This document shows, one piece after another, positions 3,653 through 61,799 of a DNA stretch of 64,000 nt. How positions within the stretch are numbered: position 1 is the stretch's first letter; each line of letters begins with the position of its first letter. Origin of the DNA: Octopus sinensis (Eukaryota); the NCBI RefSeq assembly GCF_006345805.1, contig NC_043008.1, positions 73,036,001 to 73,100,000 of the forward strand, written 5' to 3'. The notes beneath the pieces are model-generated. The model had not been told where the DNA came from, searched no databases, and saw only the letters and a program-made list of their open reading frames with translations. The position numbers and the translations under genes are program-made.

Positions 3653-3954
3653 GCAATTAAGGGTAAAACTAATTAATTACGAAGTAATCAATAAATTTCA
3701 CCAAGTAGAATTCGGTATGAAAACAGGACCGTTATACGGTAAATTCTAGTAATACTAATATTGAGGGGTCAGCAAAAGAAATACATCACCACATACCGAA
3801 GTTCAGAAATAACAGCCAAAATCTAAGCCATTTCTTCTACTTAAAAAAAGGGTCTACCAGAGAAACCATAATACTTGAATCTTATTCATCCAGGCAGAGG
3901 GTAACGTAACGAAAATCAATCAATATCCGATTATCCATAGACGTGCGTTTCGGA

Positions 3955-3957
<3 letters not shown>
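3653..3957 (-). mobile_element. Truncated PLE-type terminal-repeat fragment in (TA)n carrying the 3' half of a hammerhead
   Basis: Bounded by (TA)n on both sides. Minus strand begins GATTCC-GAAA-CGCACG-TC (3951-3940). The CUGANGA half is absent. Confidence 0.45.
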
Positions 3958-3994
<37 letters not shown>

Positions 3995-5098
3995 TACACA
4001 CACATGCACATGCACGAGTTAAGGCTACCCAAATCCATCACATTCCTAAAGGAAGTTGATAAGGTTCTTAAGGCAAAAGAAGCTGTGAGAGGTCTGTTTT
4101 TCATTTTGTGCCAAGTCTGTCATTGGGAGATGCAAGTGGAAATGAAACTTGGTCTAATTTTTCCATTAGAAGTGGTAGTAATACACTTTTACACTTTGCC
4201 TGAGTGAGCTGATGAGGACCAAATTAACCTCTGCCAGCAGAAGGGTTCTATCTGCAGTCTCTTGTCAACCTCAACCATTGACCTGGTCTTAGTGCCATGG
4301 CTATCTTCTTGGTAACTGTCTTTAATTCTTTGAGGTCTTAAGCAGTCCTTCGCAAAAAATAATGCACTGATTTTGTTGAGAAACCATAGTAACCAGCTTC
4401 ACTAGAAATCACAATGATCTGCCACTTCTTAAAGAAAATTGTGTTTAACCAACAGATTCACTTGTCTCTTCCAGTGAAAGATTTAACATGAAATGAAAAA
4501 GCAGGTCTCCTACAGCTTCTTTTTCTCCGAGGAACCTCATCACCTTCATTTAGGAAACTGATATCGTTGGATGGTGATGTCTATTGTTTATTTGCCTTAA
4601 TTCTCTTCAGGTCTGTCTGCTTGATGATTTCTGTAAATCATGCTTCCATTTATATCCGCTTTCTCCCAGTGCCCTGAGGCATCCAGTCAAAATGTTAAGT
4701 GTTATCCCAGTTGAAATATGAATACATGCATACACTCATGGATGCATGTGCATGCCAAGTGTATGTGTGTAGATGCAGTATGTTCAAAGAGTTAATTTCA
4801 TTTCGCAACCATGTCACACACTGTGTCATACTAATTCAGACTAAAAATTATGTCAATGGTACATGTGTCACTGGAATACTCAGCCACATACACACTAGTT
4901 TAATGTGCAGTTAATTAAACTGACTGAACAACTGAATATAAGGAAATCAATAAGATAAGAAACAACTGAAATGAGAAAGAACTGGGGTCAATATGATGGA
5001 CTAAAAATTCTTGAAGTCTAGAATCAAAAAAAGACATAAGGATGACTTGAGAAATAGTCATAGGGTCACCCATTTTTGGAGAGGAGAACAATCAGTTG

Positions 5099-5174
5099 AC
5101 TCTTTACTCTTTTATTTGTTTCAGTCATGTGGTTGGTAAGCAAGCAACTTACCACACAGCCACTCCTGTGCCTA
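5099..5174 (-). mobile_element. Internally deleted SINE family A (head fused to tail)
   Basis: Minus strand reads GGCACAGGAGTGGCTGTGTGGTAAG..CCAACCACATG joined directly to ACTGAAACAAATAAAAGAGTAAAGAG. Confidence 0.7.
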
Positions 5175-6409
5175 TGCTCCTGACCTTAATACTTGACACA
5201 TACTTTCTTAAGTAGCTTATTTACATATGAAATGCAAGGTCAACTTCAGAGGTATTTCACCTCAGAATATAAAATGGCAGAGTAAAGACATATGATATTT
5301 TAAAAACTCTAATAATGCAATGTGCAGGTGAATGTGCTTAGACAAATCTCTTGGTTTAAAAAGACTCAAAAAAATAAAAACAATCTAACAGACTAACCTA
5401 CGTAAGATTGATGGAATAAATAATGTTATGTTGTAAGATAGCTCTAAAATATGGCCTAAATTTGATTTAATGGTGGTTAATATCTGATGTGTAAGATGAT
5501 CTCTGATAAGCTAGTGTAGATTAGAATATATATAAGCAGGTGAGTCTGTACAGGAAGAATTTAACATAATTTCTAACCAAAATAGGTTGACGAACTAATA
5601 AATAATATAGCTTACATGTAGACTTGGCTGCTAAAATATGGCTAAATTGTTTAAGCAGAGGGTGATAGTAATATATTGAACACTGTATGATGATGTTTAT
5701 GACGAAACATCAGCTGATGTGGAAATATTGCCACTACCATTAATATACATGTCTTTGTCCTTACAGGGCTGTTTCACTTCTCAATCTGTCGGCATGAAAT
5801 ATTCTGTTCAATCATGCCACTGCAATGAAAAGTGTCATAAACAAACCACTTCAATTCCCTGTTATCAATGAAAGTATCTGGTCATAAAACTTTTCTATGG
5901 TTCTCAGAAAATCTAAAGAAAATAGGGGCGGGGGAGGAACGAGGATGGTTTATGTGGTTAAATATGAAGATGGAGCAGAAGAAAGAGTTTAGCATTAACA
6001 ACATTTTATTTTATGCATTGGTGATCTTTCTGGGTGTGTGTATTTGAATTTGCAAGTGTGAATATGTGCATCTGTGTTTATATGCTTATTTGTGTATGTG
6101 TGTGTATCTGTCTGTATTTGCATGTGTGAATGTTTGTGTGAGCTTAAAATGTAATAATATTTGTATATTTGCCTGTGCATGTGTGAGAGAGTGTCTGTGT
6201 ATATGTAAAAGCATAAAATGCACATATATGTGTTTGTATGTAAAATCTAACAATATGAGAGTATGTATGTGAATGTCAGATGCAAAATACAATGATCTAC
6301 CGTGGTTGCCTTGGTTTATTTTGTGTGATTGAATTATGATCTGTGATTGGTCAATTTGTGACATTTACAATAAATTTTATTTCAGCAGTGTATTCTTTTA
6401 TTATTGATA

Positions 6410-6730
6410 AAGTTAAGGAGTATCACTGCTGTCATGTGCCATCATCACAGTAGTGAGTGACTATAGCAGGAGTATGCTATCATATCAAAAATTAGGAGCT
6501 GTGTCAGGAGTATACTATATTAGCTGATGTACTGTTTTACATGAAGAGTACAATGTCAGAGTAGGAGTACACTACATTAGTTGGTCAGTGTCATATCAGT
6601 TTACTATATAGATGGTGTACAGTGTCATATTAGAAGTATGCTATCTTAGATCATGCTCACTGTTGTGGCAGGATTAAGCAGACATATGAAGAATATAATT
6701 TTTTTGTTACTGTGCCGTCATGCCATAAGT
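6410..6730. repeat. Degenerate ~20-bp minisatellite (GTCATATCAGGAGTATACT-like)
   Basis: Recurrent AGGAGTAT and TGTCATAT words, resuming at 7430-7490 and 7815-7950 around SINE insertions. Confidence 0.5.
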
Positions 6731-6772
6731 GTTTTAATTAACTGCTGTTGGAAGAACATATTAGCAGCAAGC

Positions 6773-7005
6773 ATTGATGTGACTTCTGGTGCCACATGAA
6801 AAAAGCACTGGTGATGGTGCCATATAAAAAGCACCCAGTACATGCTGTAAAGTGATTGACTCTAAGAAACTAAGCTGTAGACAGTAAGCCAAACCAAACT
6901 ATGGAACTTAGTGTGGCCCTCTGGCCTGGCCAGTTCCTTTTCAGCCATCCAACCCATGCCAGTATGGAAAAAGGACGTTAAATATTGAGGATGATGATGA
7001 TGATG
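6773..7005 (+). mobile_element. RTE 3'-tail element
   Basis: GGTGCCACATGAAAAAAGCAC...CCATCCAACCCATGCCAGTATGGAAAAAGGACGTTAAA followed by (GAT)n. Confidence 0.7.
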
Positions 7006-9422: not shown

Positions 9423-9470
9423 CATTTTAGTACCGGTTTCAGCCTTTGCAACTTTTTCAACTTAGAGTAA
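9423..9470 (-). ncRNA. Minimal type I hammerhead-like motif, U3-A8 core variant
   Basis: Minus strand AG-TTGAAAA-AGTT gcaaa GGCT-GAAA-CCGG-TA-CT. Helix III is palindromic and helix I is weak. A second copy at about 12880-12922 (+) has stem II AGTC/GACT. Confidence 0.6.
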
Positions 9471-10041: not shown

Positions 10042-12334
10042 TCATTCTAAGGCCCCTGTAATAGTATCATTTGTGGTGGATGCATTCAAAAGGGGTTTAT
10101 ATTTTGTGATAAAATATGACACTTTACTAATGCACTGACTACAGGTTGCATCGTCCACGAATTTATAGAGGGTAAAATTTCTGAAGTTGGGTTGTTTGTT
10201 ATTGGCACAAATGTCGATGTGTTCGCTGAATACTATTTTTTGGTATTCTTGAATTTTGATTTGGGATCTATGTAGAGCCATCCTTTGATGTAGACTGTTT
10301 TTGCTTTGGCCTATGTATTGCTCTTGACACCCAGAAAAAGTTAATACATACATTAGGTTCTCCAAAGAACATGTGAAGTTGCTGTTCACTGTAAAACGTT
10401 GACTCTGTTTGAAAGAGAACTTCTATCCCTCAATTAAGTTGATGCATATACCACAGTTAGGTCTTCCACATTTTTTTACTGATGGCTTCAGTGTTGTTGA
10501 CGAGCATTTTGGGCTTGTGTTAGGAGACTTTTCATAGATTTGGGTTATCTTTTGCTCTTTATGATGGTGTGCATTTGGAGGATTAAATTCATTGTGGTCC
10601 CTTTTTAGTATGGGAATGTTCTGAAGGATGGTGTCGAAGGTTTCATTGTTAAGAGAGTTGTGTGTAAAGATATATGGTAGAGCTTTTGGTTGTAAATCCT
10701 TCTTTAATTTCAGATGTCTGAGTTCGTGGATGTTGAGTTGTAGGGCATGTTGAAAGCATATATGAATTAGTGGTGGTGGGTAGTTCCTGATAATGAGTGT
10801 ATTTTTTAGTTCATATAGTCGTGTGTCTCTGGTGCTTGTATTAGAAACTATAGTACAAATTCTTTTTGCTAGGTTGAAAGGGATATTTATTCTAGTGTGT
10901 CTGGGGTGGCATGAGTTGAACGGTAGATAGTGCTTGTAGTCAATGGGCTTATAGTATATATCTGTTTCTATTTCATTGTTAGATTTCTTAATGAAGATGT
11001 TGAGGAATGGAAGTTGTTGATGGCTATATTCCATCGTAAATTTAATACTTACATCAAGTCCATTTATACATGCTTCAAATTCTTCAAGTCTATCATTACT
11101 CTCATGCCAAAGAATGACACAGTCATCCAGATACCTCTTCCAGTTATTTTTTATGTAGAGGAAGAATGGGTTGCCGTATTTTTTTAGTACCTTATGATAA
11201 AGACTGTTTTCTAGATAAGCCATGACTAGGTTTGCAAAGGAAGGGGCCATTCTCATATCAATCATAGTCCCCGATTTTTGTAGATAGAAGTTGTCTTTGA
11301 AGACAAAATAGTTATTCTCCAAGATGAATTTTAGCTCTTCTATTACGAATTCTTTTTTTATGTGATGTGGCCGTTTATTGGAGTAATTCTCTTGCCAGAA
11401 TTGAACTGCCTCTATTCCTAGGTTGGTGGAGGAGGGTGTGGATATTAGAATAGAGGTTGACTATATCGAAGGATACTAGAAAGGGTATTTTTGTTTATTG
11501 TTTTAGGGAGGTGATTGAGCATATTTAGGTCGTCCCTTATGTAGCTTTTGACATGCTTGAGGAATGGTTTTAAGAGGGTGTCTGAAAAGTTACTGAGGCG
11601 CTGGGCTTCGTATGCAGGACCTGCTGTTATAGGTCTTAATTTGAGATCATTAGGAGTAAGGACCTTGATTATTATGTCTGTGGCTATCCTGTATGCATTA
11701 CTTATTTTCTCACTTTTGTGTATCTTAGGGATACTCTAGAACTGATTGGATTTACTGTTGAAGTTGGTCATATAATCGTGTTCCTTGTTGGGGAGCCCTT
11801 CTCTGTATAGATTTAACATGGATTTTAGGTTTCGCATTATTTTCTGCTGACTGTAGTGTTGAACCTTTTCATAATATGCTGTGTCTTCTAATATGGATAG
11901 TACTAGAGTTATATAGAATACCGTGTCCATTAAGACAACTGCACTCCCTGTATCAGCCTCCTTGATTGTTATTGTTTATCATCTTTTAATTTGTTCAGTT
12001 CAGCCCATACTTTTTTGCTGAAGTTTTGTTTGTGATTTTGTTTGTGTATATGTTGATATGGGTAATTCGTGACCTATTCACAGAAATGATCAAAACTTTT
12101 GTTCTTACCTTTTGAAGGGGTGTAGTTACTTCTACTTTGGACTAATGATTAGTCCTTGTTGTATTTGTTGTATAGTTCCTCAGTAAGTTGTAATTTTCTA
12201 TAGAATTCCATGATGTCTTCTTTCATTTCATTGTAGTTGGGGTGTTGGATGAGGGTAAACTTGAGCCCTTTGGAGAGTATGTTGATTTGGTTTGCTGTTA
12301 GTTCTTCGTGAGTTAGGTTGATGATTTTTATCAC
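10042..12334 (-). pseudogene. PLE reverse transcriptase-GIY-YIG endonuclease polyprotein, frameshifted
   Basis: Motifs in order: LSKGLKF, EADTGSAVVLMD, RPITAG, FDIVNLYSNI, LQKSGT..MAPSFANL, WKRYLDD, LPFLNI, DIYYKP, Cys linker CGRPNCGIC/FTC, and MYVL..CQEQYIGQS..QRMALH. Confidence 0.92.
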
Positions 12335-13009
12335 TTTTGGTTCCTCCTGTCTGTCTGGTGCTATCTTGTATCTCTGTGTTTGTGTATTGGGTCTAAAAAT
12401 AATTAAGGTGAGTGGGACAGTAGCTGTTTTGTAGTTGTTCCTTGTTGTTGTGGAGTGCCCTGTTGTGATTTATAGTGTGGGTTCTTGGAAGGGTATTAAA
12501 AGGCGTGTCTCTATATCCCATGTTTAGATGTGGTGTTTCAGGGGGCTGTCATTGGTAATTATTATGTGTGGTACAGGTTTGTTGTGGTGTGGTTGTTTAG
12601 TAGGTTGTTGGAACGAAAATTTCGTTGGTAACTCCTTATAGACGGGGGTTGAAATGTCTATCTACTACTGCTGCTTAAACAATCAAAACCAAGAATTCAT
12701 ATCAAATATTAGGACTACTATTAACTGCTACCTACTACCAAGAACTCACATGAGTAGAAAAAAGAGACAGAGACAGACAGAAAAAAGGAAAACGTCTCTT
12801 GCATTTGAAACCTATGGAAATATTAAAACAAAACTTTCATTTAATTTTTCCACAATTTAATTGTTTTTCATGCATTACTCTAATTTGAAAAAGTCACAAA
12901 GACTGAAAACAGTACTAAAATGTTCTTCATGATAAAATTATTTTAGAATTTTCTACCTTGTCTTATTTTCCTTATACATATCAACTCGTGTGTTCCTTTT
13001 CAACCTTCT

Positions 13010-20718: not shown

Positions 20719-21878
20719 AACATGGAAGTGCTACACTGGTCTCTCCATTCAAAAACAAATCTAGTCTTATAACATCGGTGGAATGGGATAAAGGTACCTG
20801 TGGAAGAATGGAAGAAAGTGGCTTTTTAATGAAAATAATCACAAATACGAAATTTTTACAAAAACTTAACCCTAAAAAGATTGATCTATCCCCTAATGTC
20901 ACCGTCCAAGCTTGTCATGGCTCAATCACTGATAACAAACAAAATATAAACTGGATCGGCAATCACCCGGATCACCAAGGACAGTATACTCGAATGATGA
21001 ACCAGATTCCAAACGAAAAATCAGCTACTGGCTGAAATCTTCCTGAAACACATGAGCTAGAAGTACACCACAACCAGAATATTCTAACAGATGGCCATCC
21101 ATGTTTGTCATCAAATAACCCCCCAAAATAAAATGAAAAATGGTCTAGAGATTGACCAAATTAAACAATCAGTAAGGGATAAAAGGAACGAAGTTGCAGC
21201 TAAAGAATATAGTATAGAGGAAATAATTATAGACCAGCCCAGATCTGATGGAAATGCAATAATGATTGAAAGAGATAATGTAACTGATAAGCTAAGTGAA
21301 ACCAGTATGAATGAATGTGACACTCTCCCAAAGATCCACAATTTTAAACAAAACCTGAAAGTAATTGATAAAATCCACCTTGCACTTAAGGATATAATTT
21401 CAGCTAATGATGTTGATATTACAGATCTCAACCACCTGTACTATGCATCCACGAATATCTCAATGATTCTATGTGGTGAAAAGATTAGAAAATAACAACA
21501 TTCCCACAAAAAGCCTGCTTGGCAAGAGCGTATTCAGCAACAAATTCAGCTACTTAGGTCTGACATAGAATGCTTAAAAACCTTAAGTTAGATAAAACTA
21601 TCTAACCAACAAAAATCTGAAAATTAAAGGAAAATTATAACATGAAACCATACCACCAAAGAAACTATCAAGCAAAAGTACATTATTTACATTATTTACA
21701 TTATTTACAATTGACAGATATTTGCCCTCATCTTGTTTGTTGCTAGCACAACGTTTTGGTTCATATACCCTCCAGCCTTCATCAGTTGTCTTGGGGAAAT
21801 TTTGAACCTGGGTTCTCATTCCTAAGGTATTTTTGGATGTTGTGGTTATCATTATTATTATTATTATTATTATTATTT

Positions 21879-21952
21879 AGGTCATCACTGCCTGGAATCG
21901 AATTCGGATTCTTGGGGTTAGTAGCCCATGCTCTTAACCTCTACACCATGTG
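21879..21952 (-). promoter_or_regulatory. tRNA-derived Pol III internal promoter (SINE head)
   Basis: Minus strand has A box TGGTGTAGAGG, anticodon-like arm TGGG-CTACTAA-CCC and B box GAATTCGATTCC. No paired acceptor stem. Confidence 0.7.
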
Positions 21953-22029
21953 AATAATAATAACAACAACAACAACAACAACATCCAAAAATACCTTAGG
22001 AATGAGAACCCAAGTTCGAAATTTCCCCC

Positions 22030-22076
22030 AAGACACCTGATGAAGGCTGGAGGTATATAAGCCAAAACGTTGTATT
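22030..22076 (+). ncRNA. Minimal type I hammerhead (GAAA mutated to AAAA)
   Basis: GACAC-CTGATGA-aGGCT..AGCC-AAAA-CG-TT-GTATT. Mirror copy at about 21744-21792 (-). Confidence 0.7.
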
Positions 22077-24199
22077 AACAACAAACAAGATGAAGGCATA
22101 TATCCATCAAATGTAAATAATGTACATAATTTCTCATCTCTTAAATATAGAACTGTATTATCAAGCCAAAGTTATATGCTAAAGCTGCCCACATAGCAAG
22201 GTATGAAATTTGTATTAGATTCTTCAAGGACAAAAGCATGTTCAAAAATAACCCAAAAATTTTTACAGGAAGATAGGGAAAATACCAGTTACAGTAAAGT
22301 TTGTCCCATCAAAAGAAGAAGTGCAGGAATTTTGGAATAAAATTTGGGCAGAAGAAAAAACACACAACGAAAAGGCCTCTTGGATTGATAAAATATCTAC
22401 AGACGTAGATTCCTTAGAAGAGCAAAAGTGGGAGGGTATCAAGGTAGAGGATGTAAGATCTACTCTCAGGAGGTCAAGCAAATGGAAGGCTCCAGGAAAG
22501 GATAAAATTCCTAACTTCTGGCAGAATGCCTTCACAGAGAGCCATGAACTGCTAACAAAACTTTACAACAATGTTTTGCAACAACCTAGTATGGTTCCAT
22601 CTTGGTTAGTTAATGGTGTAACATTTCTACTTCCAAAAAAATTAAGAAACAAATGAACCAAAAAATGATAGACCCATAACTAGCTTAACAACAATGTATA
22701 AAATACTAACATCTGTCTTGACTGAATATACCTATAGTTTTTAATAGAAAGTAGCATATTCCCTAATGAGCAAAAAGGGTGTAAACGTGGGTCTTGTGGT
22801 TGTAAAGATCAGCTATTCATCAATAAGGTGATCTTAGAAGATTGTCACAAGTGACGCAAAAACTTGACAATAACCTGGACAGACTATAAAAACGCTTGTG
22901 ATAATCTACCACATAGCTGGATTAAGAAATGTCAGGAAATGTATAAAATATCACCTACTCTGCAAAACTTGTTTGTAAGTATGAGATCATGGAGACCCAC
23001 ACTGACTTTGAACAGTGACAATGAATCTCTTAATGCTGGAGATATAAGAATTTCATGTGGCATTTTCCAGGGTGACTGTCTATCATCACTCCTCTTTTGT
23101 CTAGCCTTAATACCTCTCTCGAAATTGGTCGATGGTGTACAATATGGCTATAAAATGTTTGATAAAAATATATATTATCTCATTTACATGGATGATTTAA
23201 AGCTCTTTGCAAAAAATAGCCAACAACTACTGGGCTTACTAACGATTGTTAAGCAATTCAGTGATGAGGGAAAGGAATAGAAGAGAATGTTAATGCAGGG
23301 TAAGGGCAATAATCAAGATAGAGCTGAATGCAAGAGACAGGATTGAAGTGATCAATACTTTAGCCATACAAGTCATGACTTACAGTTTCAATATCATAAA
23401 CTGGTCAATTACTGAAATATGTAATCTTGACAGAAAAATACGAAAATTATTGCCAATGTATAGAATGCACCAACCTAAAGCAGATATAGAACAAGTTTAC
23501 TTGGCAAGAAAAGAGGGTGGCCATGGACTTTTACAAACAGAATTAACAATGAAGATTGCCACAATTGGCCTAGACACCTACCTGAAAAACTTTGATGATG
23601 GGATGTTAAAACTTATCTTAAAGCATGAAAAGAAGAAAACAGGTAAAGGAATACCTAAGTGAATTCCAAACACAACAAATTCCAGAATTAGACGTACTGG
23701 AAACACGCACAGCAAAAGCTAAGCATATGAAAATCCGTGCTAAAATTGCTGCCTTATTCTTACTGATAAATGGCAAGAAAAACCTCTCAAAGGCAAATAC
23801 CCAAAGAGAGCTAATAGTGCCGATGTTGACAAAGCCCTTACCCATCAATGGTTAGTGTCTTCTGGCTCAAAATTAGAAACAGAAGTGCTTATCATAGCAG
23901 CCTAAGATCAATGCAGCCTACCTACAAGGGACTACCAGGCCAACATATGAAATAATTGATGCTTTTAGGACTGTGAGTATTCATATACACAAATGGTTGA
24001 AGGAAGCTGGAATGGAATGTCTTATGGAGCTTCCACAGAAAGTTTGCCTCTAAGAAACAGGAAAGATTATCAGGAGGGTTTTGAGCATTTGAAAGATTAT
24101 TGAAAGCTTGTGGATATCTAAAGTTACAGGTAGTAACTCACAACTCACATGAATTCTACCAAGAAAAAGACCAATCATGAGTCAAGTCAAATAATAATC

Positions 24200-38845: not shown

Positions 38846-40356
38846 CTTTTCATATAAAAAAACTCTACGCATTACCAGGTGAACAAATTCCTCAATCGCA
38901 TTGAAGTTGCATATGGTCTATAGATACACATGTTTGCAGGCAGAGTGACTACATATGAAATTATGACTGTTTCAGAGCAATCTTAAGATCCTCGGTTTTA
39001 GCTGAGACACTTTAAAATCCTTGAAGCAGCAAGTCACATAATGTGTTGACAGAATGCAACATGAAAACATAATATGATGCAAGAAAGAATGCACAAGAGC
39101 TGCTATTGACTTTATTTTGTTCATTTCACTTTATTTTTCTGTTATATTCCACTTTAAGAGAGAAAATGTTCTCCATTAAACTGCAATGTGAAATATATAT
39201 ATATCCATACACTTCATTTTTTATTTACTGAAAGGATTTCTCAGATATTTTTGCCAATCCTTAACTAACTTGCAGCTGATGTAGTAAGGAATGATAGAAA
39301 AGAAAGCTTTTCTTGTTTACTTTAAAAAGAAAGAAAAAGCACAACTCTACAATTTAAATGTCCTTATCCTGGGTAGAGAAATTGTTTTCACTTATGAGAA
39401 ATTTCTCAACTGTTTATGTTTCATAATTGTATTCCCAAAGAATTGGTTTCCATACACCTAGACAATCTATTTGCCAATCTCATCATCATTTTGGTTAACA
39501 CTTGAGGGAGTTTGGTAATGAAAATACAAAAGCAAAACAAAAAGAAAGAAGAAGTAACAAACTAATCTGGTGCCTGGCATCCTATTACATGAGATAATTT
39601 TCTGAGAGAAATATAGACTTATTTCATACATAGTTGTGAAGGAAAAGATTTTCACTGGAAAAAAAAATTCTTCACTATAAAAGAAAATTAACAAAACTGT
39701 ATAAAAGAAAATATTGCTTGATAGATATGAATGGAAATTCTTAAACAGAATCTGTCTTGGGTTATTTTATTTCAACCATGATTTGATAACCAAATGAGTT
39801 ACCAAAGAAATACGTACATTGTCAGAGTTACAAGAAATTATACACTTACACAATCATGAGGATTCCCATAAGCCATTAGATGTTAGAAGCACCAAAGGTG
39901 GTTTCTGTCTCTATCAAGTATATCTATTGCAAATCAACTTTGGGGAGACCAACTCCTCAACATATTATACCCACAGGGGAAGTACAAGTGAGTACTAAAG
40001 TAGACATCAATTTTACAGTACTGATATTGGTTATAGTACTTAGTCATATAGCATATTGTGCATTACTGTTTACAGCTAGATGGACCGAGCCATTTCTAAG
40101 TTAAGTATATTTGCTAGAGACAAGCTTATGATCAAAGGTTTCCTTAACCTTAACCAATTCATCTATTCTTCAGCAATAGTGTAGCTGCAATTAGTTTCCC
40201 AAAGTTCTTTAAGAAAGTAAAATATGATTTGGAGGAAATTTGGCTGTTATTTCTAGTTACATGAAGTCATCTTGGAGACAATGATGACACAGGATGTCAG
40301 TTTATTCAGTACTGTGTCAAATCAATCATTTCTAAATTTTAAGTATAACACTAATT

Positions 40357-40554
40357 CAGTTCTATATTTAAGAGACGAGGAATTATGTACAATATTTACA
40401 TTTGACGGATATTTGTCCTCATCTTGTTTGTCCACACAACGTTACAGCTGTTATACCCTCCAGCCTTCATCAGGTGTCTTGGGGAAATTTTGAACCTGGG
40501 TTCTCATTTCCAAGGTATTTTTCGATGTTGTTGTTGCTATTATTATTATTATTA

Positions 40555-40606
<52 letters not shown>

Positions 40607-40781
40607 CAGGTCACTGCCTGGAATAATAATAATAACATTGAAAACTACCTTAGGAATAAGAACCCAAGTTCAAAATTTCCCCAAGACACCTGATGAGGCT
40701 GGAGATATATCAGCCGTAACATTGTGTTGACAACAAACAAGATGAGGACAAATATCAGTAAAATGTAAATAATATAAATAA
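40357..40781. mobile_element. tRNA-headed, hammerhead-bearing inverted-repeat element, copy 2
   Basis: Same family as 21680-22158. Perfect 13-bp TSD TATAACACTAATT at 40344-40356 and 40782-40794. Only the 3' stub of the head (CAGGTCACTGCCTGGAAT) remains. Confidence 0.88.
40683..40728 (+). ncRNA. Minimal type I hammerhead (GAAA mutated to GTAA)
   Basis: GACAC-CTGATGA-GGCTG..CAGCC-GTAA-CA-TT-GTGTT. Mirror copy at about 40432-40480 (-). Confidence 0.7.
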
Positions 40782-41420
40782 TATAACACTAATTATTAGT
40801 CAAAATTATTGTAAATAATTAATTAATTTTCTCTTGTCCAGTTTAATTGTTAATTATGTAAATATGATGGATGTATGAAAAATATATGCACATATAATAA
40901 ATGAATATAAATATCTGGTGATATGATCTTCAGAAGACCTGTCTACCTCAGTGAAACTGAGTTCTGGAAGCACTGTGTGTTCCACCCATGTGTAACATTT
41001 CTTTTACATATCCTACCCCAATAACCCAAACTACACCTTCTCTTCTTCATTCACTCTGCTTATCTTTCCCTCCCCACCCTTGCAGCCAGATCCTATCCTC
41101 CCCACTGCCAACTGTATTATTGTTATTACATTAACCCTCCCTATATACCTGGCTATCACCAGTCACTGCATTTCTCCTTCCTCTTTGCATTCTTGTGAAC
41201 TCCCTACTCATACATCCTGGGAAATCTTCTGCTTTTTTATTTATATTCACATCCTTGTAACTTAAAAGAATGCCTTGACACATTATCTTCATCTCCCCAC
41301 TTTCTCTTGCTCACTCATGCTCTCCTTCCAACTGGGGTAACAATATATTTTCTCTGTCACACTGTCATAATCTAACCTCCCATCACCTGACACAAAATCA
41401 TCTCTTTTAAAAGGATCTTT

Positions 41421-42942: not shown

Positions 42943-43283
42943 CGTACTTTATTTAAAAGCATCAAAAATATAACAAAAGATGTTACTCAGAGTTTCTCGT
43001 TCCCATTCGGCGGACAGTTTTGTTAAAATAGAACACAAATAACGATATGATCAAAACTAGTTAAAGGATGCACCTTAAAAAATGGATTTGTTTCATTGGT
43101 CCTTTCAAATAACAGTCTTAAGTTTGCGATAAACAAAATAAGCAATATGCATGAATTCAATATAAATTCATCCTATTATAAAAAATCAAGGAAAAACCTT
43201 AAATCGAAGAGCGGATTCAAAATACATATCGTTATTAATACTCTTTTTTCCACCTTGTTTCACATTTATGTGCTTACTCCGGT
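42943..43283 (-). mobile_element. PLE-type short element in (TA)/(TG) tract with degenerate hammerhead
   Basis: Bounded by microsatellites. HHR-like fold at 42971-43024 near its 3' end. Confidence 0.55.
42971..43024 (-). ncRNA. Degenerate type I hammerhead (core CCGCCGA)
   Basis: Minus strand TAACAAAAcTGT-CCGCCGA-atgggaacga-GAAA-CTCtGAG-TA-ACAtcTTTTGTTA. Helix I has 11 bp with an internal loop. Confidence 0.55.
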
Positions 43284-43621: not shown

Positions 43622-44626
43622 AGCTATTCTAAGTCCAAAAAGAACTATATCTGGTTTGTCATTCCTTTCGGGAAACAAATCAGGTCTAACTTCCCTTTAC
43701 AATTCCGTGAAGCCGTAGCTAGGAACTTTCCCAGGAATTCTAGGTATTACTCTACTATCAATTCGCATAAGGTGAGGATTGCATTTTCCAACACTAGAAA
43801 CCTATCACAGATAATTGCCTCCCATAATAATAAGCTGCTAAATAAGGACTCATCATCCAGGAGTAGCGACACTGCCCTTACCAATTCCAACCTAACATAT
43901 AATAATAATAATAATAATATAAATAGTATTGATATTAGCAACATTCATAGCAACATTGGCATTAACAATAGTAATAATGATAATAATATTAGCCGGATTA
44001 TTAACAGTGGTGGTGTTAGTGGTAATAGTAACAGCATTTCTAATAACAGTTGTATTATTGATGATAACAATCCCAGCATTCCTATAGTCAGAGAAATTGC
44101 CGACGATATTACAATTAATAGTAATGATAATAAGATGAATAGTATCGTGGCCAATGCTAGCAACAATATTTATACCTATCATAACAATAAAAACTCTGTC
44201 TTAGTATCGGATGTTAACCCCAACAGATTAAAGTTCCTATCCAAAAATTCCAAAATTAGAACCACCATTTACCAGTGCAAAATTTCTTCGGGAACCGATG
44301 TCTTCTTCTACATTGGAGCAACTTATTCTAAATTAGCCCAAAGGATCTCTAGCCATTATTCAACTTTCCGAGATAAGAGAAAACAACAAAGCACGGGACT
44401 AAGTAAATTAGTTTGGCATCTGAAGGACAGCAATACAACTTTCAAACTGGAATGGTCCATATTGTCGGTGTCCTTCCCGTTTGATAAGGGCAGAAGACAT
44501 TGTGGCGTCTGTAATTCCGAACTTTTTCATATTTTGTTCGCCAAAGTCCCTTTAATAAATACAATCATCGAGAGGTCCTACAGATGCATGCACTGGCAAA
44601 AACACACCTTTCATTCATTTGAATAA
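43622..44626 (+). CDS. PLE C-terminal region with GIY-YIG endonuclease (open frame, 5'-truncated, no RT)
   Basis: Open from 43622: KKNYIWFVIPF..NFP..KVRIAFSNTRNLSQIIASHNNKLL, an Asn-rich insert, TIYQCKI..YIGAT..QRISSH..TGLSKLVWHLK..WSIL..CGVC..E..CMH. Confidence 0.8.
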   Translation, partial: SYSKSKKNYIWFVIPFGKQIRSNFPLQFREAVARNFPRNSRYYSTINSHKVRIAFSNTRNLSQIIASHNNKLLNKDSSSRSSDTALTNSNLTYNNNNNNINSIDISNIHSNIGINNSNNDNNISRIINSGGVSGNSNSISNNSCIIDDNNPSIPIVREIADDITINSNDNKMNSIVANASNNIYTYHNNKNSVLVSDVNPNRLKFLSKNSKIRTTIYQCKISSGTDVFFYIGATYSKLAQRISSHYSTFRDKRKQQSTGLSKLVWHLKDSNTTFKLEWSILSVSFPFDKGRRHCGVCNSELFHILFAKVPLINTIIERSYRCMHWQKHTFHSFE

Positions 44627-44937: not shown

Positions 44938-45181
44938 TTAATGCAACTCATTCACAAAAGAAAATTCACCATTCATTTGAACTGCACCCTTTCACCTTCC
45001 TATTCTTATGCTTCTCTTCTCCTACTTCGTTTGAACCCTTGAACCTTTAGAACCTTCTAGAATCTTACAGCCAACCATTTTGACATCACTCCTTATAAAG
45101 GAATATTTTAAAGAGACACTCACTATCACTATGGGCTCCGTGTGAGCAGTCATCTAAAAGTCTTTTGTGCATCTTGATGTT

Positions 45182-45293
45182 GACATAAGTTCCTTGCTTT
45201 TCCTGATGAGAAAGCGGCATAATATACTCCTTATTCCTTCGCAATTAGGAATATGCAGCCCTTGAAACATGTCGAAAATAAAGGAATTTTGTT
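45182..45293 (+). ncRNA. Type I hammerhead ribozyme with canonical core
   Basis: TTCCTTgcTTTTC-CTGATGA (45203-45209)-long imperfect stem II-GAAA (45264-45267)-CATG-TC-GAAAAtaAAGGAA. Predicted GUC cleavage after 45273. Confidence 0.82.
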
Positions 45294-45322
45294 AATTCGT
45301 CGTTCAACTCCATTCTTTCATA

Positions 45323-45362
<40 letters not shown>

Positions 45363-45365
<3 letters not shown>

Positions 45366-45575
45366 CGGAGATGTACTTGCATAGCGAGTGACTTGATCTG
45401 AGATCGTGTGCTGGAACGAAAACAATTGCAGCATGGAAGGTGTTTATAAGCCATTTAAGAAACACACAAAACCGTTAGATTCACTTCAACATTTAAATTT
45501 AATTTGTCAAAATATTTTCGTCGCTTTGAGACCGCGACCTGTTCACTGACAAAACTTTGTGCTGCATCACTTGTT
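45363..45575 (-). mobile_element. Short PLE-type element in (TA)n with G3-C8 hammerhead
   Basis: About 210 bp bounded by (TA)n, with an HHR fold at 45503-45553. Confidence 0.65.
45503..45553 (-). ncRNA. Minimal type I hammerhead, G3-C8 core variant
   Basis: Minus strand TTTGTCA-GTGAACA-gGTCGC ggtctcaaa GCGAC-GAAA-ATAT-TT-TGACAAA. Helix I is a perfect 7 bp, helix II 5 bp, and helix III palindromic. Confidence 0.72.
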
Positions 45576-45583
45576 ATATATAT

Positions 45584-45892
45584 ATAACAAATTACAACAG
45601 ATGGATAGTGGTTCACTCACTACAGCTGTTTCAGTTGTGTTTTTTATTGATGAATAGTTATTACATCATGCAAAAAATAACACCATTTTCGTCAGGTTAA
45701 TGTATGCATGAATTACTTACTTGGTTTCATGGAATGTCTTTTGTAAAATATTTAATTTGCACATATATTCACCTGATGAAAATGGCTTCTTTTTTTTTCC
45801 ACATGATGTGATAATTTTATTCATCAATAAAAGACATGCCTGAAACAGCTGCAGTGAGTGAATCACTATCCATCTATTGTTATTTATTTATG
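45584..45892. mobile_element. Palindromic element with a hammerhead in each arm
   Basis: Inverted arms at about 45584-45715 and 45750-45892. Minus arm reads ATTAAC-CTGACGA..GAAA-CAGCTG-TA-GTGAGT (45701-45615). Plus arm reads ATTCAC-CTGATGA..GAAA-CAGCTG-CA-GTGAGT (45767-45859). Confidence 0.75.
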
Positions 45893-47084
45893 ATTCACCT
45901 TACTTGGAACCTACAATTAGTGTTGGACTGAAGTCTGTTGAATGCAGTACAACTCGTGCAGTGTTTCTACATTGGTGCAACCTTCAGACTAGTGGCATTC
46001 AATCAGACACTTGGGATCATACATGCAACTGGAATTTAAATCCGTCTTTACTTCGGTAGGTGTATATATATGTTCCTTTAATTTTGTTTTGTATATGATA
46101 GCAATTTCATTGATCCGCCCTTGATGCTTTACTATTTAAAGACCTGATTCACTTTGATCCTGAACTTTTATATATATAAAAATTTATTTATATATATATA
46201 TATATGTATGTATGTATATACATACATAATTTGTTTTTTATTGGTTGTATTTGAACTAGATAAAGCTATAATATAAAACATATAGATTTTGGGGTATAAA
46301 AAACTCACTGGATAGGAAAAGTCAAAATCTACCCATGGTATTTGAACCCACATCTTCCATAAGCATTATAAACATTTGACCAAAGGAATCCTTTAAATAT
46401 CTCCAACCATTTTAGAAATTTTGTTCTTCACCAGTGAGACTTGTATGTTGTTTACATCATAAGAATTATTTCACATCCTCTTTAAGCTTCTAAAATCTTA
46501 TGACATAAACAATACATACATGCATATATATATACATGTATATACATATATACATGTATGTATGTCTGTATATATAATATATAAATTTATATAGGTATAT
46601 GTATATAGGCAACGCTGTTTATTTATGTTATCACAATGGTGACAATGTCACTGCAAAAATTTATAATTATAAGAAAACTTTATATTCACTTTAGTTTAAG
46701 TGCCATTACATGCTGAAGTTAAAAATTAAAAAAAGAAACAACAAATTTTATGTAAAAGCCACTTAACTGGATGAGTTGCATGTGAAGATAAAATTCTTGG
46801 TGTCAAAGAATCTTTAGAAATGCTACAAAATGAAAATCCAACAGAAGCTACTGTACGTCAATGACTTTCCTTGATACAGAGCTTCCACAATAACGTGCTG
46901 CCTGACTTAAAGCTGAAGATTTATAACTGAGAATCAAAAGATGGGGGATCTGGGATATTTGAAGGAACAAATGGATTTTACGGAATCTTAACTCAACAAT
47001 ACTGTTCATAACTTAGAACAAGCTATAGAATTTTGAACACTCACAAAGCTATTTAAAAAAACTGTATTTTTATATATCTTTCAT

Positions 47085-48137: not shown

Positions 48138-49379
48138 TTACTTTACATTACATTATATTGCATACGTACACTGGACTGGACAGTTGACAAGATCTGCAGC
48201 CTGGACATCAAATCTAGAAATGTACTGACCACCTCTGGCAACTTTCACATTAACAGTAACACCAATAGGATTTATGTGAGATGAAGTGATAGTAGTTGTG
48301 GCATAAAGTCAGTCCAAATAGCCTTTGAATGTTGCATTATATTACTCAGACAACACCAGCCAAACAGTAAAGAAAGAAATGAGTTCATTCCTTGCATACT
48401 CAAAAGTGAGAGCTTACAGCATCCTCAGAGTTGAAGAACTGAGCAGGTACTCTGAGAATGCAACTGTTTCATGTGACCCAGAGGAGGTGGGACTAGCCTT
48501 GGCAGGGAAGCTGGCAGCCTACCAGCAAAAGCAATGCATGGGTACATATTCCATAAGGTAGAGTATAACAACAGTTCTGAGAGGAAGAATCATCTCTCTT
48601 CGACCTGTGAGAGATACACTGCATCATACATTGAAGGATATATCTTCACTACCCCACTATCCAGGAAAAAGAAATAGCTACTAAATACTTGACAAACAAG
48701 CACCAAACTTCCACATTGTGATAGAAAATGTTGACTCTGCTATGTCAGTGTGGAAAACATCACCCATATCATCATCAGCTACTTGGTTTTATATTCCTTC
48801 TCCAACTAAGAGGCAAATTTCAATTGATTTTGAATATTTTGCACTCATCATTCAATAAATCCCCACATTTCAAAATTATACGCATACACATGTGTGTGTA
48901 AGTGTATATATACATATATACACAGATACACACATTTAACCTCCTTACTGGGTTGGGTGGGCTATGAACTATCCACCTTGACCCCATCCTAACTTGCCAG
49001 ATACTAATACTATGAGCCTTGGGAATACTATCCACTTCAACAATAGCAACACTAGTACCATAGCCCCTAGTACTAATAACCACAGTATGTGACAGTGGTG
49101 ACACCCTCTCTCAAAAACATACTAGTAATAATAACAACTTCAGTTCTACTGCAAGGATAATGGATCATAGGAATGAAATCAGAATAGGGATTGCTCCTAA
49201 GCTAACCACTAGTGAGAAAACCTGTAATTGTTGGATCTCTCAACTAGGTGATTTTTGTGTACGCTAGATGTTTTTTGTTTACAATATAATGTTGTATATA
49301 GATGCATGGTAGTAACCCCATGTTCCCACCAGGTTAGGGTCTACATTGGTGGCACTGTTAATTTCAAGCGTTGCTATTG

Positions 49380-49735
49380 GAGAAGGAAAAATTCTTAGGG
49401 TAGAAGTCAGAAACATTACAAACGTAAGGTATGCTGATGATACAGTCTTACTTACAGAATTGAAAAAGGAACTTCAGAGACTTTTGGGTATAGTGGTCAG
49501 AGAAAGCAAGAAGAAGGTCCTGTTCATGAATTGCAAGAAGATAGAGTGCTTGGTGGTGACAAAGAAGGGAAGCCCCACATATCATCCTTCAAATACCTCA
49601 GAAGTTTGATCACAGAAGGCACAAGATGTGTGAAAGAGATCAAAAGAGGAAATGTGCTGGCAAAATTTCCATTCTCAAAATTGTGTAACATCTTGAAAAA
49701 TCATACTCTGAGCATCAAGACCAAGATAAATTTGG
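49380..49735 (+). pseudogene. RTE-clade LINE reverse transcriptase fragment
   Basis: ITNVRYADDTVLL..KELQRLL..MNCKKIECLV, then a frameshift, then SFKYLRSLITE..KEIKR..LAK..FSKL.NIL..LSIKTKI. Confidence 0.85.
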
Positions 49736-50990
49736 GCATGTATTATACTTGCTTGTCCTGTTCCTTATCACATGGTATTTTCTCCAAAATGAAACTGGAA
49801 TGAAGCCACCTTGAAATACTAGATGAAATTCAAATTGGAAATAATATTGGAAAGCCTTCAGGAAGAGAAATTCCACAATGCTTTTAAGACCTCCAAATGT
49901 AAATAATATATGGATTAAATTATTTACTGAATAGAATCACTTTAGATCTTGTCCTGAAACTTTCTGATACTTCTTTGTATACACAAGTGTGGACACACTA
50001 ACTTAAAAGGTAGTGTATTTAGCATTGAAAGTGGGATTGCTACATGGAAATTAATTACATGTCCTTATACATATGATATATTAGTCTCATGACAGGTAAT
50101 TTATGTTGTTACCAAATGGTTTAATAGTGAAAATGGAGATGTAACTCCAGCAGTCGTCTGACATGGCTCAATGGAAAAGTATGGCCTTCGTGTGTTATCA
50201 TTATAGACTTGAAAATACCATGTACGAAAATGCATGCTAACACAAGAACATGCACTAATTAATCACCATATAAAAACACAACTCAATAAGCCACCTTTAA
50301 AATAGCAAGCATGGGATTCTGTATACAATGAGGTATTAGAAAGAAAGTTCCCTGACTTGGCATACAGTGTGTGTGTGTGTGTGTGTGTATGTGTGTGTGT
50401 GTATGTGTGTGTGTGTGTGTGTGTGTGTACAAAGTATTAAGATATTTACAATAATTCCTTACTTCAAAAGAATTTCTTTGTCAGCTCTCAGATCTGCTAT
50501 GTATCAAATAGGTAAGGCCAACTATATGGGACTTTTTATTATGGAAATTTCTAACAGTATTCTATAAATTTCATGCATCATTACGAATTCCTTTATCAAG
50601 GAATTTCCTCACAGAACTCATATAAATATATGTTTCATGGACAAATGGAGGCGATAATAAATCATTTTTGCAGAAGTAAATTTGTCAGCACTTAAATTTC
50701 CCAGTCGTTAAATTCATCTTTTCTCATCAGTGCCTTATGTGTGTGTGGGGGGAGGGGGGTGTATACATGTCTATAATTATTATTAATATTTATTAGTATG
50801 TATCTATATAGCATGTGCATACATACAGATATATAGCACTTAAGATAGATACTGCATATCCTGGCAATGTCATAAGGGGCATCTAAAGGCTTAGTATCAG
50901 GCAAGGCATCCACCTGTGTAATGCTGCCACAAAAATGATGTATAATCATTACCCCAATTTAATAGGGAAAATGGCCCTAAAATGTTACTT

Positions 50991-59581: not shown

Positions 59582-59646
<65 letters not shown>

Positions 59647-59695
59647 GTGTGTGTGTGTGTGTGTGCATGTGTATCTCTCTCTCTCTCTCTCTCTT

Positions 59696-59736
<41 letters not shown>

Positions 59737-59909
59737 TTATATATTAATTTTGCAAGATTCTTGATGTGAAATCGTGTGTTGAAACAGATATTGTTCTATT
59801 TAGGAATGATCATTTTGCTAGTTTAGCGAAAAAAAACACATGCACTATATATTTGGTGTTACTTTGCTTCAGCGCTATTTGTTTTTTACATTAATCATAA
59901 TCTCATTTT

Positions 59910-59954
59910 GGCCAGAGTTCTTTCACCACAATCTTGTGACCTCATCAGTGGTCC
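59910..59954 (-). ncRNA. Minimal type I hammerhead with intact core
   Basis: Minus strand GGACCA-CTGATGA-gGTCACA agat TGTGGT-GAAA-GAAC-TC-TGGCC. The mirror copy at 61347-61391 (+) has stem II GTCATA/TGTGAC but AAAA in place of GAAA. Confidence 0.72.
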
Positions 59955-60305
59955 TTTGCTTTCTTCTTTCTTATTTGTGTGTCTCTCCTTACTAACGATC
60001 AGCCATTTTATATTTTGTATTCCTATTGTATGTGTCTTTATTTGCACATGCGTATACCTCTATGTGCGTCTATGTTTAGTAAATGCGTGTGTGTGTGTGT
60101 CGGGAGGGGGAGTCTGTATTATCTGTATCCCCGGTTTATACATGTTCGTTTAATTTGTTTTTATTTATTTTGTTCATGTGCTTATACCTACTTATTTTTT
60201 TCTATTCTTTCTCTTTTTGTATTTAATTTTGTTAACTTAAATAGTTATTTAATTCCATTTGTTTATCTGTGTGTTGTATTATATTTTGTTCATATTGTTA
60301 TCAGT

Positions 60306-61217
60306 TTATGGGGATCTTATTCTGTCATATGTTGTGGTGTGTTGGGTGTGTGTGCTAGTGTTTCATTCCAGTTTCCTATTCATGCCAGGTTTATCTTCTA
60401 TTATGCGTGTAGCTTCTGTAATTTGTCTAAGCGTTGCATCTGTTCTATGTCTGGACAAGATTTTAACTTCTATGTTGTTGAGCAAGCCCCTGTGTTCCTG
60501 CTCGGCATGCTTGTACAGAACCAATGAGCTCTTCTCTTCCTTAAGTTCCCTTCAATGCTCATTTACATGCTCTCCTATGCTCTGTGCTGATTCCACTATG
60601 TACGTCGTTGTCTTGTTACTGCACCGTCCTTCTGTACATCTTATACTATAGACTACATTTCTGGCTTTACAATTTGTTTGTGGGCTAAATTTCCATACAG
60701 TACAGGGGATTCTACTAAAAGAGTAGGTTCTACCGATTAGGAATTTGATAGGGTTGCCAGGCATTTCAACAACCTTAATTCTTAGCCTAAGTTTGTCTAA
60801 GGCCCTTCTAAAGCAGTACGCAAGTTTGTCTCTAGGGGTGGTGTTGACAAACATGACACTCTGGTATTTGTGGCTATCAAACCTTGAGTTGGTCTTCCCT
60901 ATTTTCTTCTTAGTCCTTTCAATGGTGTCCCATGACTTGTTCCTATAGAGTGGGCAAATCCCATTCCTATCATTACGTATGATAGTTTCGAATTTCCTCA
61001 TGGCTCCTTTGTATACTCTGATCCTTTCTTTATGGCTGTAACCTGAGAACTGCATGCAGTGAACAAAATGTTGTATGTGTCTCTTTAACTCTGTAGGGTC
61101 ACACATGCAGAACACATTTCACATTATTCTGACGATGTCTGCCATCAATATATTGAATTTGGCATTTTCCGTGATAGCTGAGTTCTGGTGGATCAGGTAT
61201 TTGGAGGTCATAGGTTT
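60306..61217 (-). pseudogene. PLE thumb and GIY-YIG endonuclease remnant, one frame with three internal TGA codons
   Basis: KPMTSKYLIHQNSA..KFNIL, SGY, PLYR..W..ER, SVMFV.TTP, IKVVE, CKARNVVYSIRC..C..YIVES..EH, LYKH...EH, RQITEA and MNRKLE*N. Confidence 0.85.
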
Positions 61218-61799
61218 GGCAAACCTATGGGATAGCCATAGGGGTATATGCATGCACAAATAGAGACACATAAAATAGGAATATAAAGTATAAAATGGCT
61301 GATTGTTAGTAAGGAAAGACACACAAATAAGAAAGAAGAAAGCAAAGAACCACTGATGAGGTCATAGAAATGTGACAAAAGAACTCTGGCCGAAATACGA
61401 TTAACGTAAAAATAAATAAAACTGAAGCAAATTAACACCAAATATAGAGTGCGTGTGTTTTATTGGCTAAACTGGCAACATGACCATCCCCAAATACAAC
61501 AATATATATATATATATATGTGTGTGTGTGTATATATACATATATAGTGTGAGTGTGTGTGTATGGAGTATGAGGACATATAATTATCAGTATATTGCTC
61601 TCTTCAAACGAACTAAAATACTTTTATTTCTTTTAGATCTTACTTGATAGATAAAATGCTAACACAAGAAAAGATATGCATGTATTGTTGCCATATAGGC
61701 AGAACACAGCAATTTAAAAACTGTCAGCTTTCTAAATATTACAAAATTTTTTGTACACAAGTTTTAGACGGAATATGATATCTCTAGTGGGAATGATTA

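What the first reader, a model, noticed from the sequence alone, without database searches (positions are those of the whole stretch)
3653..61505. About eight unrelated repeat families each carry a minimal hammerhead with a palindromic helix III
Seen: motifs near 3945 (half), 9440/12900 (UUGAAAA, ACCGGT), 21770/22050 and 40455/40700 (AACGTT), 43000 (ACTCTGAGT), 45240 (ACATGT), 45530 (GUGAACA, AAATATTT), 45650/45810 (ACAGCTGT) and 59930/61370 (GAAC, not palindromic). The 3-8 pair appears as C-G, U-A and G-C, and flanks are non-homologous between families. Known: PLE minimal HHRs with palindromic helix III are thought to cleave as dimers. Inference: family-specific palindromes could act as a dimerisation code that restricts processing to same-family RNAs. 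At this density the genome would hold a very large ribozyme repertoire.
Basis: partly seen in the sequence, partly recalled or inferred. Interest (0 to 1): 0.72.

Follow-up and report, generated by a model that had tools for sequence, protein, structure and literature searches.

The report
Dimer-type hammerheads of Penelope-like retroelements
This stretch of animal DNA carries fourteen mostly broken copies of a small, predicted self-cutting RNA motif from eight repeat families, four tied to Penelope-like jumping genes and the other four likely so; their short palindromes are real and already described, but other families in the same genome reuse them, so they are not by themselves a family code.

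Summary
The motifs are real. All 14 sites belong to eight repeat families whose majority sequences form type I hammerheads; 9 of 14 window copies have a broken core or palindrome. In 1.2 Mb of evenly spaced genome samples, palindromic motifs number 19 against 1.8 in shuffles. Four families sit behind Penelope-like RT/GIY-YIG ORFs; all eight show the Penelope head-to-head insertion footprint. This is the system of Cervera and de la Peña 2014, which already reports many families per genome, U3-A8 cores and palindromes.

The 'code' reading fails for the palindrome alone. Four of the eight palindromes recur in other families, and sharing is no rarer than chance. Folding predicts that dimers also swap helix I, so most cross-family dimers would be inactive, but passively: no sign of selection. 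The repertoire is large (about 1.8e5 remnants, extrapolated), with precedent in axolotl.

Side findings: one family's end repeat has a tRNA-like head; a 205-nt ORF-less family shares its tail with a protein-coding family. The scan reached the same verdict before in two other genomes (e1-8664523, e1-9829413).

The parts
3932..3957 (-). F1 hammerhead, 3' half only (5'-truncated copy; palindrome mutated; family helix III ACGCGCGT). Element about 3653-3957
9423..9468 (-). F2 hammerhead, U3-A8 core, ACCGGT, core whole, helix I only 2 bp; in the downstream terminal repeat of the Penelope-like element
10042..12469 (-). Broken Penelope-like ORF in pieces: RT (10423-11735) and GIY-YIG-like endonuclease (10042-10422)
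   Evidence: Pfam RVT_1 E 0.0071 and GIY-YIG E 0.014, both below cut-off; 30% identity to the RT in L362, E 9e-18
12662..12981 (+). Inverted 5' arm of the F2 element, with a second hammerhead at 12877-12922 (palindrome mutated)
21682..22140 (.). Head-to-head pair of F3 end repeats; hammerheads 21742-21793 (-) and 22029-22079 (+), both with G12 changed to A; remnant of the tRNA-like head between them; inserted in a LINE
40347..40788 (.). Second head-to-head F3 pair; hammerheads 40430-40481 (-) and 40682-40731 (+), both with A13 changed
42976..43021 (-). F4 hammerhead, family core with C at position 4, odd palindrome ACTCTGAGT; window copy has A6 changed
43622..44626 (+). GIY-YIG-like end of a Penelope-like ORF, upstream of the F5 hammerhead
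   Evidence: motif read by eye; no Pfam hit; same-strand upstream in 13 of 30 F5 loci
45195..45281 (+). F5 hammerhead, long helix II, core whole, palindrome shortened by 2 nt, base of helix II damaged
45363..45567 (-). F6: 205-nt ORF-less unit with fixed ends; intact hammerhead 45502-45554 with G3-C8 core and AATATT
45613..45861 (.). Head-to-head F7 pair; hammerheads 45613-45703 (-; core whole, helices damaged) and 45765-45861 (+; U16.1 changed)
59907..59956 (-). F8 hammerhead, core whole, helix III AGAACT
60552..61118 (-). GIY-YIG-like end of a Penelope-like ORF, upstream of the F8 hammerhead
   Evidence: motif read by eye; no Pfam hit; same-strand upstream in 9 of 30 F8 loci
61237..61505 (+). 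Inverted 5' arm of the F8 element, with a hammerhead at 61345-61394 (G12 changed to A)

Best explanation
The fourteen motifs are mostly decayed copies of type I hammerhead motifs in the end repeats of eight repeat families, four directly tied to Penelope-like retroelement ORFs and four likely Penelope-like or Penelope-mobilised, and the palindromic helix III likely lets two copies pair into one cutting-competent dimer. Reverse transcription likely starts near the element's 3' end and usually stops early, which would leave short hammerhead-bearing stubs, often with a head-to-head second arm, in AT-rich microsatellites. In the predicted dimer helix I is swapped between partners as well as helix III, so same-family preference would come from both helices as a passive result of sequence divergence. 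The palindrome alone is reused by other families and shows no sign of being a selected code.
For: Shown here: 8 of 8 family majorities form the core with helices. Enrichment 19 vs 1.8. ORF link for F2, F5, F8 (5, 13, 9 of 30 loci, own locus included) and F3 (3 of 30 loci; RT, endonuclease, head and hammerhead copy in L362). An inverted copy lies upstream in 69 of 240 loci, and all five window pairs are head-to-head. Recurrent fixed 3' ends, with a shorter and a longer class in most families, match the PLE 'tail' (PMC11167929, PMC8557442). Exact palindrome twins for F2, F3, F5, F7 with cross helix I of 0-1 bp. Predicted: the MFE homodimers of F1, F4 and F7 have an intermolecular palindrome duplex and swapped helix I. 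Literature: PMC4209133 reports the same architecture, U3-A8 cores, opposite-strand pairs, several families per genome and weak dimer cleavage.
Against: No cleavage was tested here. Only 3 of 8 MFE homodimers show the swapped form (2 of 8 with helix II intact as well). F1, F4, F6 and F7 could not be tied to an ORF within 1.5 kb. F2 has a 2-bp helix I, and the F6 and F8 palindrome duplexes are very weak (-0.2 and +1.4 kcal/mol), so these may need protein help or not cut. Pfam hits on the window ORFs are below cut-off. F1, F6 and F8 had no twin palindrome in the sample, and F6 and F8, which share a tail, do differ in palindrome. The family census is small (25) and biased to abundant families.
Confidence: 0.8

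Rival explanations
1. Helix III palindromes are a selected, family-specific dimerisation code that keeps processing within a family.
For: The eight window families have eight different palindromes; 19 different helix III sequences occur among 25 families; F6 and F8 share a tail but not a palindrome.
Against: 4 of 8 window palindromes have exact twins in other families; ACCGGT is used by at least five sequence types; sharing exceeds a uniform null (P 0.019) and equals a C15.2-biased null; F4 and s621 differ only at the central base; same-genome sharing is already in the published alignment.
Confidence: 0.06
2. Helix I and helix III together form a two-part address under selection for mutual exclusion, most strongly between an ORF-less rider and the element whose enzyme it borrows.
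For: Only 4 of 300 family pairs are predicted compatible in both helices, 2 of them between clear relatives; F6 and F8 share a tail but differ in core pair, helix I and palindrome.
Against: About 2.9 such pairs are expected if the helices vary independently (26 x 33 / 300), so there is no depletion; a permutation test under a looser rule also showed none (28 observed, 25.5 expected); F7 and s46 are predicted cross-compatible; F6/F8 is a single case.
Confidence: 0.1
3. The motif is kept as a protein-binding or folding signal, or cuts only with help from the element's protein, and RNA dimerisation matters little in vivo.
For: In PMC11167929 the Poseidon hammerhead cut only when the element's protein was added, and cutting was not needed for insertion in vitro. 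Here copies do not start at the cleavage site (3 of 41 in F1, 0 in the other seven families). Several families carry core variants (C4, G3-C8) described as weakening activity.
Against: The palindrome is kept through changes on both sides across families: 16 of 25 perfect even, 3 odd, 4 with an unpaired centre, 2 one change away. That points to base pairing with a second copy. This rival is compatible with the best explanation as an added requirement.
Confidence: 0.25
4. The motifs are chance matches in AT-rich repetitive DNA.
For: The window alone gives 4 hits against 2.55 in shuffles; no hammerhead family among the 150 of 166 Rfam rows shown.
Against: 19 vs 1.8 in 1.2 Mb; 378 vs 50 and 6134 vs 0 genome-wide; all eight family majorities restore the full core.
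Confidence: 0.01

Closest known systems
Minimal and palindromic-helix-III hammerheads in pLTRs of metazoan Penelope-like elements (Cervera and de la Peña 2014, PMC4209133; parts 1-2 of 4 of the main text and parts 1-2 of 3 of the supplement read)
   Same: Type I topology, extra nucleotide after A9 in most families, palindromic 15.2-16.2 and loop 3, U3-A8 variant, several heterogeneous families per genome (6 in coelacanth, 8 in Xenopus), mostly solo truncated copies, opposite-strand pairs 100-700 bp apart, proposed dimer activity.
   Different: Here more families have 8-12 nt palindromes and very long helix II arms (about 55-75 nt); G3-C8 and C4 cores occur as family majorities; estimated copy numbers are about ten times those the paper gives, with a different descriptor.
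Lünse, Weinberg, Breaker, RNA Biol 14:1499, small PLE hammerheads cleave as dimers (not held; seen only as a citation and summary in PMC6765202 passages)
   Same: Short palindromic stem III, dimer cleavage, link to PLEs.
   Different: Could not compare; the paper and its supplements may already list such palindromes or test heterodimers.
Poseidon_Ac of the green anole (PMC11167929; parts 1-2 of 4 read)
   Same: Hammerhead in the pLTR, two fixed 3' ends (tail), AT-rich targets, no copies starting at the cleavage site; the G3-C8 swap partly restores cutting.
   Different: There the hammerhead overlaps the ORF start; here no protein or RNA was tested. F3 has a tRNA-like head in its repeat.
EN+ PLE insertion structure (Craig et al. 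2021, PMC8557442; passages read)
   Same: 5' truncation, inverted 5'-truncated copy at the 5' end, 30-40 bp tail, microsatellite bias.
   Different: Tails here are longer in several families (about 25-120 nt); clades of the window elements were not placed on a tree.
Animal non-LTR retrozymes (PMC7229834 and bioRxiv 10.64898/2026.07.22.740005; passages read)
   Same: ORF-less hammerhead repeats linked to PLEs; very large repertoires (126,247 motifs in axolotl); palindromic loop and dimer activity in amphibians.
   Different: F6, the ORF-less unit here, is monomeric with fixed ends, not a tandem array (direct neighbour in 1 of 30 loci).

Membership tests
Type I minimal/short-helix-III hammerhead (PMC4209133) | Core N3-U-G-A-N-N8-A with 3-8 pair, GAAA, UH | tested here: met
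   7 of 8 family majorities canonical; F4 has C at position 4. Whole in 5 of 14 window copies.
Type I minimal/short-helix-III hammerhead (PMC4209133) | Helix II closing on G12 and open helix I flanking the core | tested here: met
   Helix II 3 bp or more in all 8; helix I 3-7 bp in 7, only 2 bp in F2.
Type I minimal/short-helix-III hammerhead (PMC4209133) | Palindromic helix III/loop 3 | tested here: met
   6 even palindromes, 1 odd, 1 with unpaired centre; class enriched 19 vs 1.8.
Type I minimal/short-helix-III hammerhead (PMC4209133) | Self-cleavage as a dimer | not testable with these tools
   Only folding: swapped dimer is the MFE for 3 of 8.
Rfam hammerhead families | Covariance-model match | tested here: not met
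   No hammerhead family among the 150 of 166 rows shown at E <= 10; lowers only the claim of Rfam membership.
EN+ Penelope-like element | RT plus C-terminal GIY-YIG ORF upstream of the hammerhead-bearing repeat, same strand | tested here: met
   Met for F2, F3, F5, F8; endonuclease identity of the F3, F5 and F8 pieces rests on recalled motifs, without a Pfam hit.
EN+ Penelope-like element | Same ORF link for F1, F4, F6, F7 | tested here: inconclusive
   No recurrent link within 1.5 kb in 30 loci each; longer copies not fetched.
EN+ Penelope-like element | 5' truncation, inverted 5' arm, fixed 3' ends with tail, microsatellite targets | tested here: met
   Inverted upstream copy in 4-18 of 30 loci in every family; 3' end classes; TA or AAT repeats at ends. 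F6 differs in having a fixed 5' end.
EN+ Penelope-like element | Clade placement by RT phylogeny | not tested
   No tree built; 'Poseidon-like' for F3 is recalled from motifs.
Family-specific palindrome code (proposed) | Each family has its own palindrome; sharing rarer than chance | tested here: not met
Non-LTR retrozyme (for F6) | Tandem head-to-tail ORF-less units | tested here: not met
   0 direct upstream and 1 direct downstream copy in 30 loci; unit 205-206 nt with fixed ends in the 26 of 30 loci where both ends were found.

The most novel reading that the evidence does not exclude
Because the double hammerhead swaps helix I as well as helix III, the two helices form a two-part address that makes dozens of co-resident Penelope families mutually orthogonal, and selection drives ORF-less riders such as F6 to change their address away from the master element (F8) whose tail and enzyme they share, so that rider RNAs neither trigger nor suffer the master's cleavage.
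Probability: 0.08. Interest if true: 0.6.

Novelty: new member of a known kind. Interest (0 to 1): 0.2.

Why it matters
As it stands it is an ordinary but rich example: one genome offers at least 25 natural variants of a dimer-type hammerhead, including G3-C8, U3-A8 and C4 cores. It supplies ready natural pairs for an open question, whether these ribozymes cut in trans and with whom: same palindrome with different helix I (F3/s200, F7/s827, F2/s243), predicted cross-compatible families (F7/s46), and a shared tail with different ribozymes (F6/F8). If a selected two-helix address were shown, it would be a self/non-self mechanism among retroelement RNAs; the present data do not show that.

Tried and rejected
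Rfam scan: no hammerhead family in the rows shown, only microsatellite-driven miRNA matches. Window-only shuffle test: too few intact copies to decide. ARAGORN on 29 F3 loci: the tRNA-like head is not called as a tRNA (1 unrelated tRNA-Leu). PDB sequence search with the window RT: 0 hits. F3 as a separate SINE: rejected, because the head lies between the endonuclease stop codon and the hammerhead in ORF-bearing copies. F3 as part of the LINE at 19.7-23.7 kb: rejected, it interrupts that ORF and occurs elsewhere without it. In vivo cleavage footprint as 5' ends at the cut site: none. Genome pattern for the F1 palindrome with short helix II: 9 matches against 1, no clear family. Non-palindromic descriptor hits are also above shuffles (77 vs 38.5; 15 in reversed sequence): of 74 such sites 58 were unique, 5 were decayed members of known families, 11 lay in other repeats; the excess is not fully explained. 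Four of 28 clusters (s1013, s244, s228, s1110) were dropped as not hammerhead-like before the counts, and F7 was added from its own alignment; s1428 and s939 were merged with relatives in the sharing test. Lünse et al. could not be read. Searches for a printed heterodimer or code claim listed none; subscription papers are not covered.
Full report
Setting. The window is G000:C12:73036001-73100000 of a 2.72-Gb genome, AT-rich and full of microsatellites. An earlier scan note calls this genome an octopus; I did not test that.

Observation. All 14 sites are in the sequence and map to eight families. I fetched the 30 best genome copies of each and aligned them. Every majority sequence gives a full type I hammerhead. 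Helix III, from A15.1 to U16.1: F1 ACGCGCGT, F2 ACCGGT, F3 ACGT, F4 ACTCTGAGT, F5 ACATATGT, F6 AATATT, F7 ACAGCTGT, F8 AGAACT. The 3-8 pair is C-G in six families, U-A in F2 and G-C in F6; F4 has C at position 4 in most raw copies. The window copies are mostly decayed: core and palindrome are whole in 5 of 14, and 2 of 14 pass my descriptor. Among the 30 copies per family, 8, 12, 9, 13, 20, 21, 3 and 16 (F1-F8) pass with the family palindrome; these sets are biased towards the window copy.

Chance. The window alone cannot decide: 4 hits against 2.55; 1 palindromic against 0.04 in 100 shuffles. In 120 evenly spaced 10-kb samples even palindromes are 19 against 1.8 +/- 1.2, odd 8 against 2.1, unpaired-centre 8 against 3.8, C4-core palindromes 10 against 1.9 (20 shuffles). 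Non-palindromic hits are also raised (77 against 38.5) and are mostly unique sequence. Exact genome patterns give 378 against 50 and 6134 against 0.

What the repeats are. F2 flanks a broken RT plus GIY-YIG-like ORF at 10042-12469. F5 and F8 lie downstream of GIY-YIG-like ORF ends in the window and in 13 and 9 of 30 loci. F3 follows an endonuclease C-terminus in 3 of 30 loci; L362 shows RT, endonuclease, tRNA-like head and a hammerhead-bearing repeat in order. F1, F4, F6 and F7 had no recurrent ORF link within 1.5 kb. All eight share the Penelope footprint: an inverted copy upstream in 69 of 240 loci against a direct copy upstream in 4 (the 1.5-kb flanks would miss the far repeat of a full-length element), recurrent fixed 3' ends, and TA or AAT repeats at the ends. 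The five window pairs are head-to-head on opposite strands, so they cannot partner each other on one transcript. PMC8557442 (passages) and PMC11167929 describe this structure.

Is the palindrome a code? Seeding on relaxed motifs in about 2 Mb gave 28 clusters. I dropped 4 as not hammerhead-like and added F7, leaving 25: 16 even palindromes, 3 odd, 4 with unpaired centre, 2 one change away. Identical helix III occurs in F3/s200, F2/s243, F7/s827, F5/s950 and s460/s1428/s619. Apart from s460/s1428, these pairs align only over 9-21 nt around the core. F4 and s621 differ only at the central base. The genome pattern for ACCGGT with a C3-G8 core shows at least three more recurrent sequence types in the 100 rows listed. 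After merging two pairs of relatives, 5 identical pairs remain among 15 even-palindrome families; a uniform null gives 1.58 (P of 5 or more 0.019), and a null with C favoured at 15.2 gives 4.55. A code predicts fewer collisions than chance; there are as many or more. The alignment in the supplement of PMC4209133 shows the same: two families each in Schistosoma mansoni, Clonorchis, Ixodes, Lottia, sea urchin and Xenopus share the CG form.

How specificity could still arise. By topology (inference), when the palindrome of molecule A pairs with that of B, the cut site of B joins the core of A, so helix I must also form between molecules. The MFE homodimers of F1, F4 and F7 show this; the other five fold otherwise. 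Of 300 family pairs, 26 are compatible in helix III, and 4 of these also form 3 bp or more of cross helix I on at least one side: F5/s939 and s460/s1428 (relatives), F7/s46, s319/s243. About 2.9 are expected if the helices vary independently (33 of 300 pairs have cross helix I). So most heterodimers are predicted inactive, as a by-product of divergence, without a selection signal.

Function. Shown: sequence, copy structure, enrichment, sharing. Inferred: dimer cleavage, from PMC4209133 (weak activity of dimers and trimers, none for the monomer) and from a review's summary of Lünse et al.. Against a central role: copies do not begin at the cut site (3 of 41 in F1, none in the other seven), and in PMC11167929 cutting needed the element's protein and was dispensable for insertion in vitro.

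Repertoire. The 25 families have 81 copies in 1.2 Mb, about 1.8e5 remnants genome-wide by extrapolation, 5.7e4 for the eight window families. The window is about three times denser than that average. Axolotl has 126,247 type I motifs (PMC7229834), so the scale has precedent.

Side findings. The F3 repeat carries a tRNA-like head followed by AAT repeats in 20 of 30 loci; I found no paper on this in one search, but the scan noted the same in another genome (e1-8669850). F6 is a young 205-nt ORF-less unit with fixed ends that shares a 19-nt tail motif with F8; it likely borrows an F8-type enzyme (untested).

Verdict. Observation largely right, system known, code not supported for the palindrome alone. 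Two earlier scan reports on other genomes reached the same verdict; I saw them after my census and do not count them as evidence. Lünse et al. and bioRxiv supplements were not visible and may bear on whether heterodimers were already tested.

Noticed in passing
window 21877-21950 and 40604-40622; L062-L090; L361, L362: The F3 end repeat begins with a tRNA-like head (A- and B-box-like) and an AAT run, right after the endonuclease stop codon; present in 20 of 30 loci. Possible Pol III promoter in a protein-coding Penelope-like element.
   Followed up: partly
window 45363-45567 (-); L151-L180: F6 is a young 205-nt ORF-less unit with fixed 5' and 3' ends, a G3-C8 hammerhead and over 6000 core-intact copies; it shares a tail motif with F8, which suggests trans-mobilisation.
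   Followed up: partly
window 42976-43021; L271, L340, L014: C instead of U at core position 4 is the family majority in F4 and appears in raw copies of s200, s621 and s827; PMC3088659 mentions U4C as weakening activity in vitro. In other clusters it may come from my CpG adjustment.
   Followed up: partly
window 19705-23662 (+): Fragments of a LINE with RT (Pfam RVT_1 E 4.5e-11) and zf-RVT, flanked by AAT runs and interrupted by the F3 pair; looks R4/Dong-like by recalled motifs, untested.
   Followed up: no
window 45060-45960: Four hammerheads of three families (F5, F6, F7) stacked end to end around TA runs, suggesting repeated insertion at the same microsatellite sites.
   Followed up: partly
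window 43622-44626 (+): The GIY-YIG-like ORF of F5 contains a long asparagine-rich stretch from an AAT-type repeat, in frame; similar in other copies (L133, L134).
   Followed up: no
window 852-1244: Tandem array of 6.3 units of 62 bp inside a common dispersed repeat.
   Followed up: no
window 49316-49803 (+): RT fragment of another LINE (Pfam RVT_1 E 1e-5).
   Followed up: no
G000:C3:35767344-35767562: Four hammerhead-like ACCGGT motifs about 59 bp apart in tandem: a very short hammerhead array.
   Followed up: no
G000:C2:188530504-188531247, C1:182078659-182079400, C3:138197537-138198053: A family with ACCGGT in about 360-bp direct tandems plus an inverted arm, probably one of the retrozyme-like families noted earlier in this genome.
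   Followed up: no
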